Below, piece by piece: positions 27,642 to 39,700 of a stretch of 64,000 nucleotides of DNA. The translations under genes were made by a program, and so were the position numbers. The notes below the pieces were generated by a model, which saw nothing but the letters and a program-made list of their open reading frames with translations, ran no database searches and had not been told where the DNA came from. The first letter of the stretch is position 1. The number at the start of each line of letters is the position of its first letter. The DNA comes from a phage, in the sequence record OZ335962.1; one strand, written 5' to 3'.

Positions 27642-27827
27642 TTAAAGCGTATTCACATAAGCTATTAATTCGTTTTCTTTCTTATCAAACCGATCAGCAA
27701 ATTCTTCTTGCTGATCGGGAGATAGCGGGCCGTATTCATCATAAAAGGTGTTTGCTTCTGTATGCTCATCTAGAAGTTCATGGATAAGCTCAAACAATTT
27801 ATCTTTTTGTTCTTTACTCAGACTCAT
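27642..27827 (-). CDS. Hypothetical acidic protein (tk.1 position)
   Basis: 61-aa ORF. Confidence 0.45.
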   Translation of the reverse strand: MSLSKEQKDKLFELIHELLDEHTEANTFYDEYGPLSPDQQEEFADRFDKKENELIAYVNTL

Positions 27828-27997
27828 ATATTAATTTCCAGGAGTTTTAAAATAATTCGCTTTTGCTTAAATATTTCCATAGTTAAATGACCAGTATCTT
27901 TTTGACCGATTCCAATGGCAAAACCTTTATTGACAGCGAGTTCAATTAAATTATCAAGCTCACGTAACACTTCATATTGTAACTCAAAACTATTCAT
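27824..27997 (-). CDS. Hypothetical small protein (57 aa), not in ORF track
   Basis: ATG 27997-27995; start and stop both overlap neighbours (ATGA). Confidence 0.35.
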   Translation of the reverse strand: MNSFELQYEVLRELDNLIELAVNKGFAIGIGQKDTGHLTMEIFKQKRIILKLLEINI

Positions 27998-28200
27998 TTC
28001 GGTTTACCTTCTTTAACGAAATCGGGATAAGGATAAAATCCTGAATAAAATCCTTCACCTTTATGATTGATGCATCCTTTATTAGAACAATAGCACCAAT
28101 AATCGAAATCACAAGCCATTTCATCATTACATAAAGCAAAAACAACTGGCCATTCACACTTTTCGCAGTGGGCATTTTTAAGAATACTTGTTTGGCTCAT
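27994..28200 (-). CDS. Cysteine-rich small protein
   Basis: ATG 28200-28198 overlapping upstream stop; CEKCEW...C..C..C.C...C cluster. Confidence 0.45.
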   Translation of the reverse strand: MSQTSILKNAHCEKCEWPVVFALCNDEMACDFDYWCYCSNKGCINHKGEGFYSGFYPYPDFVKEGKPK

Positions 28201-28409
28201 AACCATGTAACCTTTAAACAATATTCTTCTACGTGTTGTTTACGACCTTTCTTATCAATAAAGGTATATTCAACGAATGTTCCAATATAGTCTTTATCTA
28301 CACCATGTGGACTATTAATTGGGCATTTAGTACGGCAAATGCGTTCCCATTGACGAATAATTTCCACTTTGTTTTTAGGATCAAACGGATGCGGGTAATG
28401 TACTTTCAT
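28197..28409 (-). CDS. Hypothetical protein
   Basis: 70-aa ORF overlapping both neighbours. Confidence 0.4.
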   Translation of the reverse strand: MKVHYPHPFDPKNKVEIIRQWERICRTKCPINSPHGVDKDYIGTFVEYTFIDKKGRKQHVEEYCLKVTWL

Positions 28410-28860
28410 AATCCATCACTATTAAATCAATATCAGGAGTAAACATGTCGATTAATTTAGAAACCTTATCCCAATCGCCGCCAGCAATACCGCAACCTAT
28501 ACGTGGAATGTAAATTACTGGTTTAAACAAAAGGGTTTCTGCCTGTAGATTTAATTCTATCATGCAGTTTACTAAAGCACCATAATCAAGATTAGGACCC
28601 GGTTCGTATTGTGTATACAGGTTATAGCATATACCAAATCCCGTAGGGCTATGTTTAAAAACAATAGACATATCGCCTAATTTATCACGAGAACCGTACT
28701 CGGTAGTGGTTTTATCTATTTCTAAAATTTTGGGATAGGCTCTTGCTAATTGACCCGCTACGCCAGAGCCCATTGTGTGGAAGCAATTGCACCCGTGCGC
28801 AATAATATTACCTTGAAGAAATAGGGCGACAATATCGCCCTTGATATATTTTACAATCAT
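28381..28860 (-). CDS. Macro-domain protein (putative ADP-ribose-binding/processing enzyme)
   Basis: 159 aa; IKGDIVA...AHGCNCFHTMGSGVAGQLARAYP and IPRIGCGIAGGDWD resemble macro-domain motifs. Confidence 0.6.
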   Translation of the reverse strand: MIVKYIKGDIVALFLQGNIIAHGCNCFHTMGSGVAGQLARAYPKILEIDKTTTEYGSRDKLGDMSIVFKHSPTGFGICYNLYTQYEPGPNLDYGALVNCMIELNLQAETLLFKPVIYIPRIGCGIAGGDWDKVSKLIDMFTPDIDLIVMDYESTLPASV

Positions 28861-29204
28861 CTAGTACTCAATCCTCGATTATAAGAATCTACTAAACGGT
28901 CAACCATTGAATGACAAGCGGCTTTATCTTTCTCCTCCGCAACTGAACATTCTAAAGTATTCCACTTTTTAGCATATCGTTTTAACAATGTATCATTTTT
29001 GTATCTGCTTGATTTATCTCTTTCTCCGTCTTTATATGCATATATTAATTTCTGCGCAAATTCAGCTTGGCATGCTTTATTTTTCCCACAATAATCCGCG
29101 GCAGTACGGTTTACATACTCTCTAATTTCAGTATATGATGTATCTGCTAACGCAGAAGCAGAAAATGAAATTAATCCTATACATAAAACCAAAATTTTAG
29201 TCAT
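28857..29204 (-). CDS. Predicted exported small protein (signal peptide, 4 Cys)
   Basis: 115-aa ORF; N-terminus MTKILVLCIGLISFSASALA; at the position of T4 vs. Confidence 0.5.
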   Translation of the reverse strand: MTKILVLCIGLISFSASALADTSYTEIREYVNRTAADYCGKNKACQAEFAQKLIYAYKDGERDKSSRYKNDTLLKRYAKKWNTLECSVAEEKDKAACHSMVDRLVDSYNRGLSTR

Positions 29205-30238: not shown

Positions 30239-30267
30239 ATTATACCACAGTCAAGAGGAAAAGTAAA
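30239..30267 (-). promoter_or_regulatory. Early promoter of regB
   Basis: Minus strand (G)TTTACT - 17 nt - TATAAT, 28 nt upstream of regB ATG. Confidence 0.55.
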
Positions 30268-32899: not shown

Positions 32900-33316
32900 T
32901 TAAATGTAAATATTTTTGCCGTAGTATTTATACCAGTGTGGCTTCATTAAAATTTTTTCATCGAGTCGTTGTTGACTCAATTTAATAGCCGATTTGCATT
33001 GGTTATAATCATTTTTCCATTCTGCTGGAATATCGCTGATGTCAGGAACTTCAGTATCTTTTATACTAAACCCACGTTTTAAGCATTCCGCTATAATGTC
33101 TGATTGACGCTTTCGCAAAAATTCTAACTTATCATAAAAGAACGTAACATGACCAGAACCTAAAATAAACTCGGAAGATATTTTAAAATCTTTAACCCGC
33201 TTACCATTTGCCACATGTTTACGAACTATACCAAAAACACGTGGCAATTCACGGTATTCTGCGATTAAATGTTGATCAGCAAGTTCAGATACTAAAGTCA
33301 AATTAATACGAGTCAT
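32900..33316 (-). CDS. denV: Endonuclease V (pyrimidine-dimer DNA glycosylase) DenV
   Basis: 138-aa [32 protein letters not shown]...; matches recalled T4 DenV. Confidence 0.9.
32925..32932 (-). promoter_or_regulatory. Late promoter (TATAAATA) for internal-protein-like gene 32417..32890
   Basis: Exact TATAAATA on minus strand, inside the 3' end of denV, 35 nt upstream of ATG 32890. Confidence 0.5.
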
Positions 33317-33340
33317 TTTATCCCTCCTAGAATTGTGAAT

Positions 33341-33369
33341 ATACTATCACAATTCTAGGAGAAAGTAAA
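33341..33369 (-). promoter_or_regulatory. Early promoter of denV inside a 15-bp perfect inverted repeat
   Basis: Minus strand (G)TTTACT - 17 nt - TAGTAT; IR ctcctagaattgtga (33324-33338) / tcacaattctaggag (33347-33361) flanks the -10. Confidence 0.55.
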
Positions 33370-33374
33370 CAACT

Positions 33375-33905
<531 letters not shown>

Positions 33906-34361
33906 TTAAAAGAGGCTGTTCATTATTCGGTAAAGTGAAGGACCCATCACATATTGCCACTGAGTACGAGGAATAAGAGCAAAAGCATCCATCTCTGGAA
34001 TCATAACGCCATCTTTATTTTCAAAATAAGACTCGCAATGGCAATTTCTAAACATCTCATGCTCTACTGGAATCGTATAATAAAATAACTGTAAGTCTTT
34101 ATTACTAGAATATTTAAATACACCTAAGTCTTCTAGAAGGTCTGGATTATAATCGATAAAACCAGTCTCTTCTGAGCATTCTCTTTTTGCAGCTTCCAGT
34201 GCATTCAAATCAGAACTTTCTACACGCCCCTTTGGAATATCCCAGCGATGTGCCATCATTCCAGGTTTACGAGAACCGGTAACTCGTCCCATAAATAAAT
34301 CTTTATCTTCTGTCATAAAGATAATACCAGCTGATAATGTTTTCATTTTAATTTCCTGCAT
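33906..34361 (-). CDS. nudE: Nudix hydrolase NudE
   Basis: 151 aa with Nudix box GRVESSDLNALEAAKRECSEETG. Confidence 0.8.
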   Translation of the reverse strand: MQEIKMKTLSAGIIFMTEDKDLFMGRVTGSRKPGMMAHRWDIPKGRVESSDLNALEAAKRECSEETGFIDYNPDLLEDLGVFKYSSNKDLQLFYYTIPVEHEMFRNCHCESYFENKDGVMIPEMDAFALIPRTQWQYVMGPSLYRIMNSLF

Positions 34362-38872: not shown

Positions 38873-38948
38873 TGGTCGAGGCAGTAGGGATCGAACCTAC
38901 GACCCAGGACTTAGAAGGTCCTTGCTCTTCCTTCTGAGCTATGCCTCG
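38873..38948 (-). tRNA. tRNA-Arg (anticodon UCU)
   Basis: 76-nt cloverleaf read by hand: acceptor cgaggca/tgcctcg, anticodon loop cuUCUaa, T-loop ttcgatc, encoded CCA. Confidence 0.85.
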
Positions 38949-38952
38949 GATT

Positions 38953-39027
38953 TGGCGGACGTGATAGGATTCGAACCTATAACCAATCGCTTAACAGGCG
39001 ATCGCTCTGCCATTGAGCTACACATCC
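38953..39027 (-). tRNA. tRNA-Asn (anticodon GUU)
   Basis: 75 nt: acceptor ggatgtg/cacgtcc, anticodon stem atcgc/gcgat loop cuGUUaa, T-loop ttcgaat, encoded CCA. Confidence 0.8.
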
Positions 39028-39031
39028 AAAT

Positions 39032-39118
39032 TGGTGGGGAGTGATGGAGTCGAACCACCCGAGTCGCAATGACAATGGATTTACAGTCCACACCGCTACC
39101 TCTACGGGATAACTCCCC
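39032..39118 (-). tRNA. tRNA-Tyr (anticodon GUA), class II with long variable arm
   Basis: 87 nt: acceptor ggggagt/actcccc, anticodon stem gtgga/tccat loop cuGUAaa, 15-nt variable arm, T-loop ttcgact, encoded CCA. Confidence 0.75.
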
Positions 39119-39127
39119 AAATTAATT

Positions 39128-39202
39128 TGGTGGCCCTGGGTGGAATTGAACCACCATCTGGCGATTATGAGTCGCTTGCTTGAACCTTCCAGCTACAGGG
39201 CC
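39128..39202 (-). tRNA. tRNA-Ile/Met (anticodon CAU)
   Basis: 75 nt: acceptor ggccctg/cagggcc, anticodon loop cuCAUaa, T-stem ggtgg/ccacc, encoded CCA; T4 homolog reads AUA after lysidine modification. Confidence 0.8.
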
Positions 39203-39203
39203 T

Positions 39204-39279
39204 TGGTGCTGATTGACGGAATCGAACCGCCGACCTTCTCATTACAAGTGAGTTGCTCTACCTACTGAGCTAAATCAGC
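39204..39279 (-). tRNA. tRNA-Thr (anticodon UGU)
   Basis: 76 nt: acceptor gctgatt/aatcagc, D-stem gctc/gagc, anticodon loop cuUGUaa, T-loop ttcgatt, encoded CCA. Confidence 0.85.
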
Positions 39280-39284
39280 AAAAC

Positions 39285-39374
39285 TGGCGGAGGCGATAGG
39301 ATTTGAACCTATGAGTCGCCGGAGCGACTGCCGGTTTTCAAGACCGGTGCATTAAACCACTCTGCCACGCCTCC
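39285..39374 (-). tRNA. tRNA-Ser (anticodon UGA), class II
   Basis: 90 nt: acceptor ggaggcg/cgcctcc, anticodon stem ccggt/accgg loop cuUGAaa, long variable arm, T-loop ttcaaat, encoded CCA. Confidence 0.85.
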
Positions 39375-39376
39375 AG

Positions 39377-39450
39377 TCTCCATACAAGGATTTGAACCTT
39401 GGACCTCCTGATCCCAAATCAGGCGCTCTACCAAACTGAGCTACACGGAG
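39377..39450 (-). tRNA. tRNA-Pro (anticodon UGG), CCA not encoded
   Basis: 74 nt to discriminator: acceptor ctccgtg/tatggag (two G-U pairs), anticodon stem cctga/tcagg loop uuUGGga, T-loop ttcaaat; 3' flank is ctg, not CCA. Confidence 0.8.
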
Positions 39451-39460
39451 TAAATTAAAT

Positions 39461-39534
<74 letters not shown>

Positions 39535-39539
39535 AAATT

Positions 39540-39626
39540 TGGTGCGAGAAGTGGGACTCGAACCCACAAGGAAATCATTCCGCAGCATTTTAAGTGCTGT
39601 GCCTTTACCAATTTGACCATTCTCGC
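39540..39626 (-). tRNA. tRNA-Leu (anticodon UAA), class II
   Basis: 87 nt: acceptor gcgagaa/ttctcgc, anticodon stem cagca/tgctg loop cuUAAaa, long variable arm, T-loop ttcgagt, encoded CCA. Confidence 0.85.
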
Positions 39627-39627
39627 G

Positions 39628-39700
39628 CTGGGAATAAAGGACTCGAACCTTTGCATCCTGGAATCAAAATCCAGTGCCTTACCAACTTGGCTAATTCCCA
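39628..39700 (-). tRNA. tRNA-Gln (anticodon UUG), CCA not encoded
   Basis: 73 nt to discriminator: acceptor tgggaat/attccca, anticodon stem ctgga/tccag loop uuUUGau, T-loop ttcgagt; abuts tRNA-Leu 5' end. Confidence 0.8.

What the first reader, a model, noticed from the sequence alone, without database searches (positions are those of the whole stretch)
28381..28860. Macro-domain protein in the tk-regB early region
The 159-aa product has the macro-domain hallmarks in order: GDIV near the N-terminus, H-G-C-N-C in place of the N-A-A-N motif, MGSGVAGQ (ADP-ribose diphosphate-binding loop) and IPRIGCGIAGG (second glycine-rich loop). Macro domains bind or hydrolyse ADP-ribose adducts. T-even phages encode ADP-ribosyltransferases (Alt, ModA, ModB), and several bacterial defences act through ADP-ribosylation or NAD-derived signals, so a phage macro domain is a plausible counter-defence or regulatory enzyme.
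Basis: partly seen in the sequence, partly recalled or inferred. Interest (0 to 1): 0.55.

Follow-up and report, generated by a model that had tools for sequence, protein, structure and literature searches.

The report
Phage tk.4/adfM macrodomain, anti-DarTG2 gene

Summary

The window is a Tequatrovirus. The gene lies between vs and tk.3, so it is the orthologue of T4 tk.4. That gene has carried an "A1pp phosphatase motif" note for about 20 years. A November 2025 preprint (HIDEN-SEQ) found tk.4 to be the only T4 gene needed on DarTG2 hosts, confirmed this with a clean knockout, and named it adfM.

I therefore read it as a DNA ADP-ribosylglycohydrolase that removes DarT2's ADP-ribose from thymidine. 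Two nuances:
- **Active site.** It is Gln-type (invariant Gln84, Ala126), like SCO6735, not the Lys-type of DarG and TARG1.
- **Allele.** It is only 56-57% identical to T4's, although the flanking genes are 98-99% identical.

The main rival is the activity of a 39%-identical homologue. Vibrio phage Adpp shares the same key residues and is a proven ADPR-1''-phosphate phosphatase, but it works with NARP1, which I did not find in this window. Already known; low interest.

The parts
28381..28860 (-). tk.4 / adfM coding sequence, 159 aa, a stand-alone macro domain with a TGA stop at 28381-28383
28783..28797 (-). Codons for H22-G23-C24-N25-C26, the equivalent of the macrodomain 'NAAN' stretch. N25 is the conserved catalytic-site Asn.
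   Evidence: H22, G23, N25 and C26 are invariant in 110 family members. BLASTP aligns N25 with PhiKZ AdfM N23, and the N23A mutation reduces that enzyme's DNA de-ADP-ribosylation (PMC13309987). I infer from numbering that H22 and N25 correspond to SCO6735 H24 and N27, where N27S almost abolishes activity (PMC9411070).
28750..28773 (-). Codons for M30-G-S-G-V-A-G-Q37, the first glycine-rich (phosphate-binding) loop
   Evidence: Motif position. G33 and A35 are invariant, M30 and G31 are >=90% conserved.
28609..28617 (-). Codons for Y82-T83-Q84. Gln84 occupies the position of the catalytic Lys of TARG1 (K84) and DarG (K80).
   Evidence: The family-profile alignment to TARG1 places Q84 on K84 and A126 on D125. 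Q84 is present in 110 of 110 family members, never Lys. SCO6735 has Gln85 at this position and Q85A is inactive (PMC9411070).
28477..28509 (-). Codons for I118-P-R-I-G-C-G-I-A-G-G128, the second glycine-rich loop
   Evidence: Checked by reverse-complementing the bases shown. P119, G122, G124 and W130 are invariant. The stretch is almost identical to SCO6735 'PRIGCGLAGGTW' and BT1257 'PRIGCGLAGGKW'.
28857..28860 (-). ATGA overlap of the vs stop codon and the tk.4 start codon, suggesting translational coupling
   Evidence: The plus strand reads tcat at 28857-28860. Coupling is an inference.
28381..28409 (-). 29-nt overlap between the 3' end of tk.4 and the start of tk.3. T4's tk.4 is 4 codons shorter and overlaps tk.3 by only 4 nt.
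30239..30267 (-). Sigma-70-like promoter match (TTTACT, 17 nt, TATAAT, preceded by TG) just upstream of regB. It is a candidate early promoter for the tightly packed regB, vs.1, vs, tk.4, tk.3 string.
   Evidence: Pattern match only. The total number of such matches in the region is not above the shuffled expectation, so this is weak evidence. No MotA-box match lies between regB and tk.4.

Best explanation
The gene is this phage's orthologue of T4 tk.4, now called adfM (anti-DarT factor, macrodomain). It encodes a stand-alone macrodomain of the TARG1/DarG/SCO6735/Poa1p ('ALC1-like') class. The gene order suggests it is made from the regB, vs.1, vs, tk.4 gene string. When a host DarT2 toxin ADP-ribosylates thymidines in single-stranded phage DNA (TNTC motifs) and blocks replication, the protein binds the ADP-ribose through its two glycine-rich loops. 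It then cleaves the ribose-thymine bond, releasing ADP-ribose and restoring unmodified DNA. In effect it acts as an orphan antitoxin. The active site is the lysine-independent Gln type described for SCO6735. There, Gln (Gln84 in this protein) is held by the conserved Asn (Asn25 in this protein) and positions the distal ribose for a water-mediated reaction. Shown here: the ORF, the macro fold, class membership, the Gln84/Ala126 active-site type, and synteny with 56-57% identity to T4 tk.4. Shown by others: T4 tk.4 is required to resist DarTG2, SCO6735 hydrolyses dT-ADPr, and PhiKZ AdfM removes DarT2 marks from DNA. Inferred: that this divergent allele does the same, that protection is enzymatic rather than by binding DarT2, and the timing of expression.
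For: Identity and fold. Orthology: the gene sits between vs and tk.3 exactly as in T4 and in annotated relatives, with BLASTP E 3e-70 and 57% identity to T4 Tk.4. Genetics in T4: tk.4 was the single HIDEN-SEQ hit on DarTG2, and a clean knockout was sensitised. Earlier work showed that T4 lacking adfA and adfN stays DarTG2-resistant, so another factor had to exist. Active-site type: Q84 is invariant in 110 of 110 members and aligns with TARG1 K84, and A126 aligns with D125. SCO6735 has the same Gln, cleaves thymidine-linked ADP-ribose on DNA, and Q85A and N27S lose activity. Class precedent in phages: PhiKZ AdfM removes DarT2 ADP-ribose from an oligonucleotide and rescues DarT2 toxicity. The best NCBIfam and PADLOC hits are the macro part of DarG.
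Against: No biochemistry exists for any Tk.4 protein in the papers I found. The T4 evidence is genetic only. This allele is only 56-57% identical to the tested T4 protein and has not itself been tested. A 39%-identical homologue with the same H..N / Q / GCG-AGG-DW residues, Vibrio phage Adpp, is a proven ADPR-1''-phosphate phosphatase, so the residue signature does not fix the substrate. The two SCO6735 lysines that position DNA (K34, K89) have no obvious counterparts (position 32 is Ser/Ala and positions 86-90 are E-P-G-P-N), though I had no residue-level alignment to confirm this. Catalytically dead SCO6735 also inhibits DarT by binding, so hydrolysis need not be the only mode of action.
Confidence: 0.72

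Rival explanations
1. It is mainly an ADP-ribose-1''-phosphate phosphatase (Poa1p/Adpp-like), as the database label 'phosphatase' says. It would convert ADPR-1''-P, for example the product of RES-domain NAD+ phosphorolysis by the aRES defence, into ADP-ribose.
Against: Adpp is useful only because Adps and Namat then turn ADPR into NAD+. The window has no Adps or Namat. The spread sample of Namat/NAMPT homologues showed no Tequatrovirus-sized Escherichia phage. A phosphatase activity does not explain why T4 tk.4 is needed specifically on DarTG2. The window protein is closer, and syntenic, to T4 AdfM (57%) than to Adpp (39%). This remains plausible as a second, side activity.
Confidence: 0.12
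2. It protects mainly by binding and blocking DarT2, as a stoichiometric antitoxin mimic like AdfA or AdfB, and not by hydrolysing modified DNA.
For: Catalytically dead SCO6735 (Q85A), DarG (K80A) and TARG1 (K84A) all inhibit DarT in vitro, and SCO6735 inhibits most strongly. Sharp allele divergence between 98-99%-identical flanks is what one might expect at a protein-protein interface under arms-race selection.
Against: The protein lacks the C-terminal DarT-binding domain of DarG. It is 159 aa and matches only model positions 2-143 of 338. Every catalytic-site residue is invariant across 110 diverse homologues, which argues for retained catalysis. PhiKZ AdfM is catalytic.
Confidence: 0.08
3. 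It is a regulatory eraser for the phage's own ADP-ribosylation (Alt, ModA, ModB, including RNAylation) or a general protein or RNA de-ADP-ribosylase, and not a counter-defence enzyme.
For: TARG1-class enzymes including SCO6735 also act on Glu-linked protein ADP-ribose and on uracil-ADP-ribose in RNA.
Against: Alt and Mod enzymes modify arginine, a linkage reversed by ARH/DraG-type hydrolases rather than TARG1-class macrodomains (my own knowledge, not tested here). tk.4 is dispensable under standard conditions, and its only reported phenotype is on DarTG2. Homologues occur in many phage groups outside the T4-like phages, such as Felix O1, Pseudomonas and Vibrio phages. I did not check whether those phages encode Alt or Mod.
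Confidence: 0.04
4. It degrades or sequesters NAD-derived immune signals (Thoeris gcADPR-type molecules) or O-acetyl-ADP-ribose.
Against: The nearest neighbours are DNA and protein glycohydrolases and Poa1p, not signal binders. NCBIfam O-acetyl-ADP-ribose deacetylase scores only 15.7 bits against a 291-bit cut-off.
Confidence: 0.03

Closest known systems
T4 Tk.4 / AdfM (anti-DarT factor Macrodomain; bioRxiv 10.1101/2025.11.20.689424)
   Same: Same locus between vs and tk.3. Same length class (159 vs 155 aa). 56-57% identity at E 3e-70. Identical N-terminal 13 residues and identical HGCNCFHTMGSGVAGQL and NLYTQ motifs.
   Different: The allele is strongly diverged although the flanks are 98-99% identical. 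The second loop reads IGCGIAGGDW against T4's IGAGIGKGNW. It has 4 extra C-terminal residues and a 29-nt overlap with tk.3. This allele has not been tested on DarTG2.
SCO6735 of Streptomyces coelicolor (PDB 5e3b) and BT1257 (2afc/2fg1): stand-alone Gln-type TARG1-like macrodomains
   Different: They are bacterial chromosomal proteins, not phage proteins, and identity is only about 26-29%. SCO6735's DNA-positioning lysines K34 and K89 are not evidently conserved.
DarG antitoxin of DarTG2 (Thermus aquaticus 5m31/5m3e, M. tuberculosis 5m3i)
   Different: There is no C-terminal DarT-binding domain and no adjacent darT gene. Gln84 replaces the catalytic Lys80. The NCBIfam DarG equivalog scores 27.7 bits against a 250-bit cut-off.
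PhiKZ gp104 AdfM (Cell Rep 2026, PMC13309987)
   Same: A phage-encoded stand-alone macrodomain that counters DarTG2. The conserved Asn aligns: N25 here with N23 there.
   Different: There is almost no sequence similarity: BLASTP aligns only 23 residues at E 0.001. The PhiKZ sequence contains 'PTKDNW', which by eye looks like a DarG-like Lys, but no reliable alignment confirmed this. The PhiKZ protein is imported into the phage nucleus. The two proteins that share the name AdfM therefore look like separate branches of the class.
Adpp of Vibrio phage Gary (NARP1-AP; bioRxiv 10.64898/2026.01.28.702374) and yeast Poa1p
   Different: Adpp is encoded between Adps and Namat and feeds NAD+ reconstitution. 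This gene has no such partners in the window and sits in the tk-regB block.
Human TARG1 (C6orf130/OARD1)
   Same: Top Foldseek hit at E 5e-10 and TM 0.72-0.81. Same fold and same ADP-ribose loops.
   Different: The TARG1 catalytic dyad K84/D125 is replaced by Q84/A126.

Membership tests
Macro domain (Pfam PF01661) | Profile match above the curated gathering score over the whole domain | tested here: met
   32 bits against a cut-off of 22, E 1.3e-7, profile positions 2-117 of 118.
Macro domain (Pfam PF01661) | Three-layer alpha/beta/alpha macro fold | tested here: met
Macro domain (Pfam PF01661) | Binding of ADP-ribose | not testable with these tools
   Both glycine-rich loops are present and conserved. 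Binding itself needs ITC, a thermal-shift assay or a co-crystal.
ALC1-like / TARG1-like macrodomain class (TARG1, DarG, SCO6735, Poa1p) | Closest structural and sequence neighbours are class members, clearly separated from MacroD and viral macrodomains | tested here: met
DarG antitoxin (NCBIfam NF048014) | Equivalog score at or above the cut-off | tested here: not met
   27.7 bits against a cut-off of 250. Only model positions 2-143 of 338 are matched. PADLOC DarG scores 27.4 bits on the macro part only.
DarG antitoxin (NCBIfam NF048014) | C-terminal DarT-binding domain and an adjacent darT toxin gene | tested here: not met
   The protein is 159 aa, a single domain. Its neighbours are vs and tk.3.
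DarG antitoxin (NCBIfam NF048014) | Catalytic lysine (Taq DarG K80) | tested here: not met
   Gln84 occupies the position that aligns with TARG1 K84, which PMC9411070 equates with DarG K80. Gln is present in 110 of 110 homologues.
TARG1 | Catalytic Lys84/Asp125 dyad | tested here: not met
   Q84 and A126 occupy the aligned positions.
SCO6735/BT1257-like Gln-type hydrolases | Gln at the catalytic-Lys position, a conserved Asn that locks it, and a GCG-x-AGG-x-W loop | tested here: met
   Q84, N25, G122, G124 and W130 are invariant, and A126, G127 and G128 are >=90% conserved. BT1257 'NMIGQH' and SCO6735 'PRIGCGLAGGTW' align. The roles of SCO6735 Q85 and N27 are described.
SCO6735/BT1257-like Gln-type hydrolases | Hydrolysis of thymidine-linked ADP-ribose on ssDNA | not testable with these tools
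   Needs a gel-shift de-ADP-ribosylation assay on a DarT2-modified oligonucleotide.
T4 Tk.4 / AdfM orthologous group | Same genomic position (between vs and tk.3) and clear full-length homology to T4 Tk.4 | tested here: met
   Gene order. 57% identity over 155 aa with no gaps, E 3e-70.
T4 Tk.4 / AdfM orthologous group | Required for plating on DarTG2-expressing hosts | not testable with these tools
   Shown for T4 only. Not tested for this allele.
Adpp (NARP1-AP ADPR-1''-P phosphatase) | Encoded within or next to an Adps-Namat (NARP1) operon | tested here: not met
   No Adps or Namat homologue in the 64-kb window: tblastn gives only noise at E>0.2. The Chester and Gary homologue lies between the two genes.
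Adpp (NARP1-AP ADPR-1''-P phosphatase) | ADPR-1''-phosphate phosphatase activity | not testable with these tools
   Homology to Adpp is 39% with shared residues. The activity needs an LC-MS assay like the one.

The most novel reading that the evidence does not exclude
T-even AdfM would not be a captured DarG antitoxin. It would belong to the lysine-independent, Gln-type SCO6735/BT1257/Adpp branch, and one active site would serve two counter-defence chemistries: thymidine-ADP-ribose glycohydrolase against DarTG2, and ADPR-1''-phosphate phosphatase against RES-type NAD+ phosphorolysis. The sharply diverged alleles kept at one locus in otherwise 98-99%-identical Tequatrovirus genomes would then reflect selection by different DarT2 or other ADP-ribose-based defences.
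Probability: 0.25. Interest if true: 0.45.

Novelty: already known. Interest (0 to 1): 0.22.

Why it matters
DarTG2 blocks phage replication by ADP-ribosylating thymidines. T-even phages were known to resist it by an unknown factor (PMC11257639), and tk.4/adfM fills that gap. For genome annotation, hundreds of T4-like phage records label this gene 'phosphatase' or 'hypothetical protein', and it should be read as an anti-DarTG2 macrodomain. The open points are modest: the enzymology of the Gln-type site on DNA, whether the protein also has Adpp-like phosphatase activity, and whether the two very different Tequatrovirus alleles differ in which DarT2 variants they neutralise. That last point bears on host-range prediction for therapeutic T4-like phages.

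Tried and rejected
1. A four-sequence MAFFT alignment of window Tk.4, T4 Tk.4, PhiKZ gp104 and TARG1 was unreliable in the middle of the domain. I did not use it for residue equivalences and used the 110-sequence profile against PDB chains instead.

2. My first family alignment (A1) used coordinates that cut off the start codon, so its numbering was shifted by one. I redid it as A2.

3. I tried to get a residue-level alignment to SCO6735 around Gln85 by searching with the C-terminal fragment. Only the second loop aligned. The Q84 = Q85 equivalence therefore rests on the TARG1 K84 alignment plus the paper's statement.

4. DarG membership is rejected: score far below cut-off, no C-terminal domain, no catalytic Lys.

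5. Membership of the TARG1 catalytic type is rejected: Q84/A126 in place of K84/D125.

6. I considered a NARP1-associated Adpp role for this gene and ranked it low, because the window has no Adps or Namat.

7. I looked for a MotA-type middle promoter upstream of tk.4 and found none between regB and tk.4. The only nearby match lies inside tk.4 and is absent from T4's region, so it was not used.

8. The general sigma-70 and terminator scan was not enriched over shuffles. It gives only a weak hint of an early promoter before regB.

Full report
**Observation.** The ORF is real. The ORF listing gives an ATG-started ORF of 159 aa at 28381..28860 on the minus strand. The start ATG overlaps the stop of the upstream gene as ATGA. 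The 3' end overlaps the next gene by 29 nt.

**What the window is.** A 3.3-kb stretch around the gene is 99.5% identical to Escherichia phage vB_Eco_ZCEC15. It is 95-99% identical to several hundred Tequatrovirus records. In records that use T4 gene names, the ORF is tk.4. The order is regB, vs.1, vs, tk.4, tk.3, two small ORFs, tk.2, tk, which is the T4 order apart from those small ORFs.

**Is it a macro domain?** Yes, by several independent measures.
- Pfam Macro scores 32 bits against a gathering score of 22, over essentially the whole profile.
- PDB sequence searches hit BT1257, Poa1p, SCO6735, the M. tuberculosis DarG macrodomain and TARG1. E-values reach 3.7e-10 with the single sequence and 3.4e-19 with a 110-sequence family profile.
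- An AlphaFold2 model built on that alignment has mean pLDDT 94.3 and pTM 0.89.
- Foldseek returns TARG1, Poa1p, BT1257 and DarG as top hits.

The protein therefore belongs to the TARG1/DarG/SCO6735/Poa1p ("ALC1-like") class, not the MacroD/YmdB class.

**What is already known.**
- The T4 RefSeq record calls tk.4 "phosphatase; contains A1pp phosphatase motif".
- A 2006 comparative paper already reported A1pp-domain matches for tk.4 orthologues (PMC1524935).
- In 2024-25 the Laub/LeRoux work showed that T4 lacking adfA and adfN is still resistant to DarTG2, and concluded that another factor must exist (PMC11257639).
- The HIDEN-SEQ preprint of November 2025 then screened a saturated T4 transposon library on a DarTG2 host. 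It found tk.4 as the single significant hit, confirmed it with a clean knockout, noted the structural similarity to DarG, and named the gene adfM.
- A 2026 Cell Reports paper independently gave the name AdfM to PhiKZ gp104. It showed biochemically that gp104 removes DarT2-installed ADP-ribose from DNA, with an Asn-to-Ala mutant impaired (PMC13309987).

**Active-site type.** In the 110-sequence family alignment the invariant residues are H22, G23, N25, C26, G33, A35, D49, N80, Y82, Q84, P119, G122, G124 and W130. The profile alignment to TARG1 puts Q84 on the catalytic K84, and A126 on D125. All 110 sequences have Gln there and none has Lys.

PMC9411070 states that SCO6735 has Gln85 at the position of TARG1 K84 and DarG K80. 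It reports that Q85A and Q85E are inactive, and that N27 locks Gln85 in place. Despite lacking the lysine, the enzyme cleaves thymidine-linked ADP-ribose on DNA and neutralises DarT. BT1257 also has the Gln. SCO6735's second loop, PRIGCGLAGGTW, is almost identical to this protein's.

So Tk.4 is a Gln-type enzyme. It fails the DarG membership tests on four counts:
- the NCBIfam equivalog scores 27.7 bits against a 250-bit cut-off;
- there is no C-terminal DarT-binding domain;
- there is no adjacent darT gene;
- there is no catalytic Lys.

PhiKZ AdfM is barely alignable to this protein. Its sequence contains 'PTKDNW', which by eye looks like a DarG-like Lys, but I had no reliable alignment to confirm this. 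The two proteins called AdfM therefore appear to be separate branches of one class.

**A divergent allele.** The window's protein is only 56-57% identical to T4 Tk.4. Its neighbours are far closer to their T4 counterparts: vs 99.1%, vs.1 99.4%, regB 99.3%, tk 97.9% and tk.3 91.4%.

Nucleotide identity to T4 falls to 43-77% in 60-nt blocks between about 28384 and 28790, and recovers to 98% from 28851. About 312 phage records carry this allele over at least 80% of its length. T4, T6 and RB68-type records match only the first 150 nt of the gene. This looks like allele replacement at a counter-defence locus. I could not test whether it changes specificity.

**A second documented function in the same family.** One homologue, gp175 of Vibrio phage Chester, lies between genes annotated ribose-phosphate pyrophosphokinase and nicotinate phosphoribosyltransferase. 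It is 98.7% identical to the corresponding protein of Vibrio phage Gary.

A January 2026 preprint shows that the Gary protein (Adpp) is a Poa1p-like ADPR-1''-phosphate phosphatase. It lets the NARP1 NAD+-rebuilding pathway overcome the RES-domain defence aRES. Chester gp175 is 39% identical to the window protein and shares the H..N, Q and GCG-AGG-DW residues.

Two things follow. The old "phosphatase" label is not baseless. And the residue signature alone cannot say which substrate this protein prefers.

Against the phosphatase role for this gene:
- the window has no Adps or Namat;
- no Tequatrovirus-sized Escherichia phage appeared in the spread sample of Namat/NAMPT homologues;
- a phosphatase would not explain the DarTG2-specific phenotype of T4 tk.4.

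I keep it as the main rival and as a possible second activity.

**Mechanism proposed.** The tight packing of regB, vs.1, vs, tk.4 and tk.3 suggests co-transcription. The ATGA overlap with vs points the same way, as does a single good sigma-70-like match just upstream of regB. This is pattern-level evidence only.

The protein would bind the ADP-ribose placed by DarT2 on thymidine in single-stranded phage DNA and hydrolyse the ribose-base bond using the Gln84/Asn25 site. That would free the DNA for replication. The steps resting on papers are the DarTG2 phenotype in T4 and the chemistry in SCO6735 and PhiKZ AdfM. That this allele behaves the same way, and that catalysis rather than DarT2 binding is what protects, are inferences.

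**Verdict.** What remains open is modest: the Gln-type enzymology, a possible dual activity, and the meaning of the allele dimorphism.

Noticed in passing
window 28384-28790 (within tk.4): Allele replacement. tk.4 is 56% identical to T4's protein, while tk, vs, vs.1 and regB are 98-99% identical. About 312 phage records share this allele, and the T4/T6/RB68 type shares only the first 150 nt of the gene.
   Followed up: partly
window 27642-28221: T4's tk.1 is missing. tk.2 is only 54% identical to T4's. Two small ORFs sit between tk.2 and tk.3: 27824-27997 (57 aa) and 27994-28221 (75 aa, Cys-rich). They are called RB32ORF110c and RB32ORF111c in LR746311, where the second is annotated from an internal start.
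   Followed up: no
window 28554-28579, minus strand: A MotA-box/middle-promoter-like match (TGCTTTA, 13 nt, TAGAAT) lies inside the tk.4 coding sequence, facing tk.3-tk. The window has 15 such matches against 2.2 expected. T4's corresponding 9-kb region has none, so this one may be allele-specific or chance.
   Followed up: partly
window 28823-28841: A palindromic G+C-rich hairpin (AGGGCGATATTGTCGCCCT, 8 pairs) lies 20-38 nt downstream of the tk.4 start codon. The terminator scan flagged it on both strands. It encodes the conserved KGDIVAL and may simply reflect the coding sequence.
   Followed up: no
L003:3132-6138 (Vibrio phage Chester): A Tk.4 homologue (gp175) is encoded between an Adps-like 'ribose-phosphate pyrophosphokinase' and a Namat-like 'nicotinate phosphoribosyltransferase'. 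This is the NARP1-AP operon, whose Macro protein Adpp is a proven ADPR-1''-P phosphatase.
   Followed up: yes
window 32900-34361: denV (32900-33316) is followed directly by lysozyme e (33375-33869), with no room for ipII or ipIII, which lie between them in T4 (T4 gene order from my own knowledge). A Nudix hydrolase (nudE-like) follows at 33906-34361. T4 NudE is reported to hydrolyse ADP-ribose (my own knowledge), the product AdfM would release. Any link is speculative.
   Followed up: no
window 38873-39700, minus strand: A cluster of 10 tRNA genes: Arg, Asn, Tyr, Met(CAT), Thr, Ser, Pro, Gly, Leu, Gln. That is two more than the eight I recall for T4, with Asn and Tyr as the extras.
   Followed up: no
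window 28857-29204 (vs): The adjacent vs gene is translationally coupled to tk.4 by ATGA. The same HIDEN-SEQ preprint reports it as the T4 gene most depleted in minimal medium.
   Followed up: no
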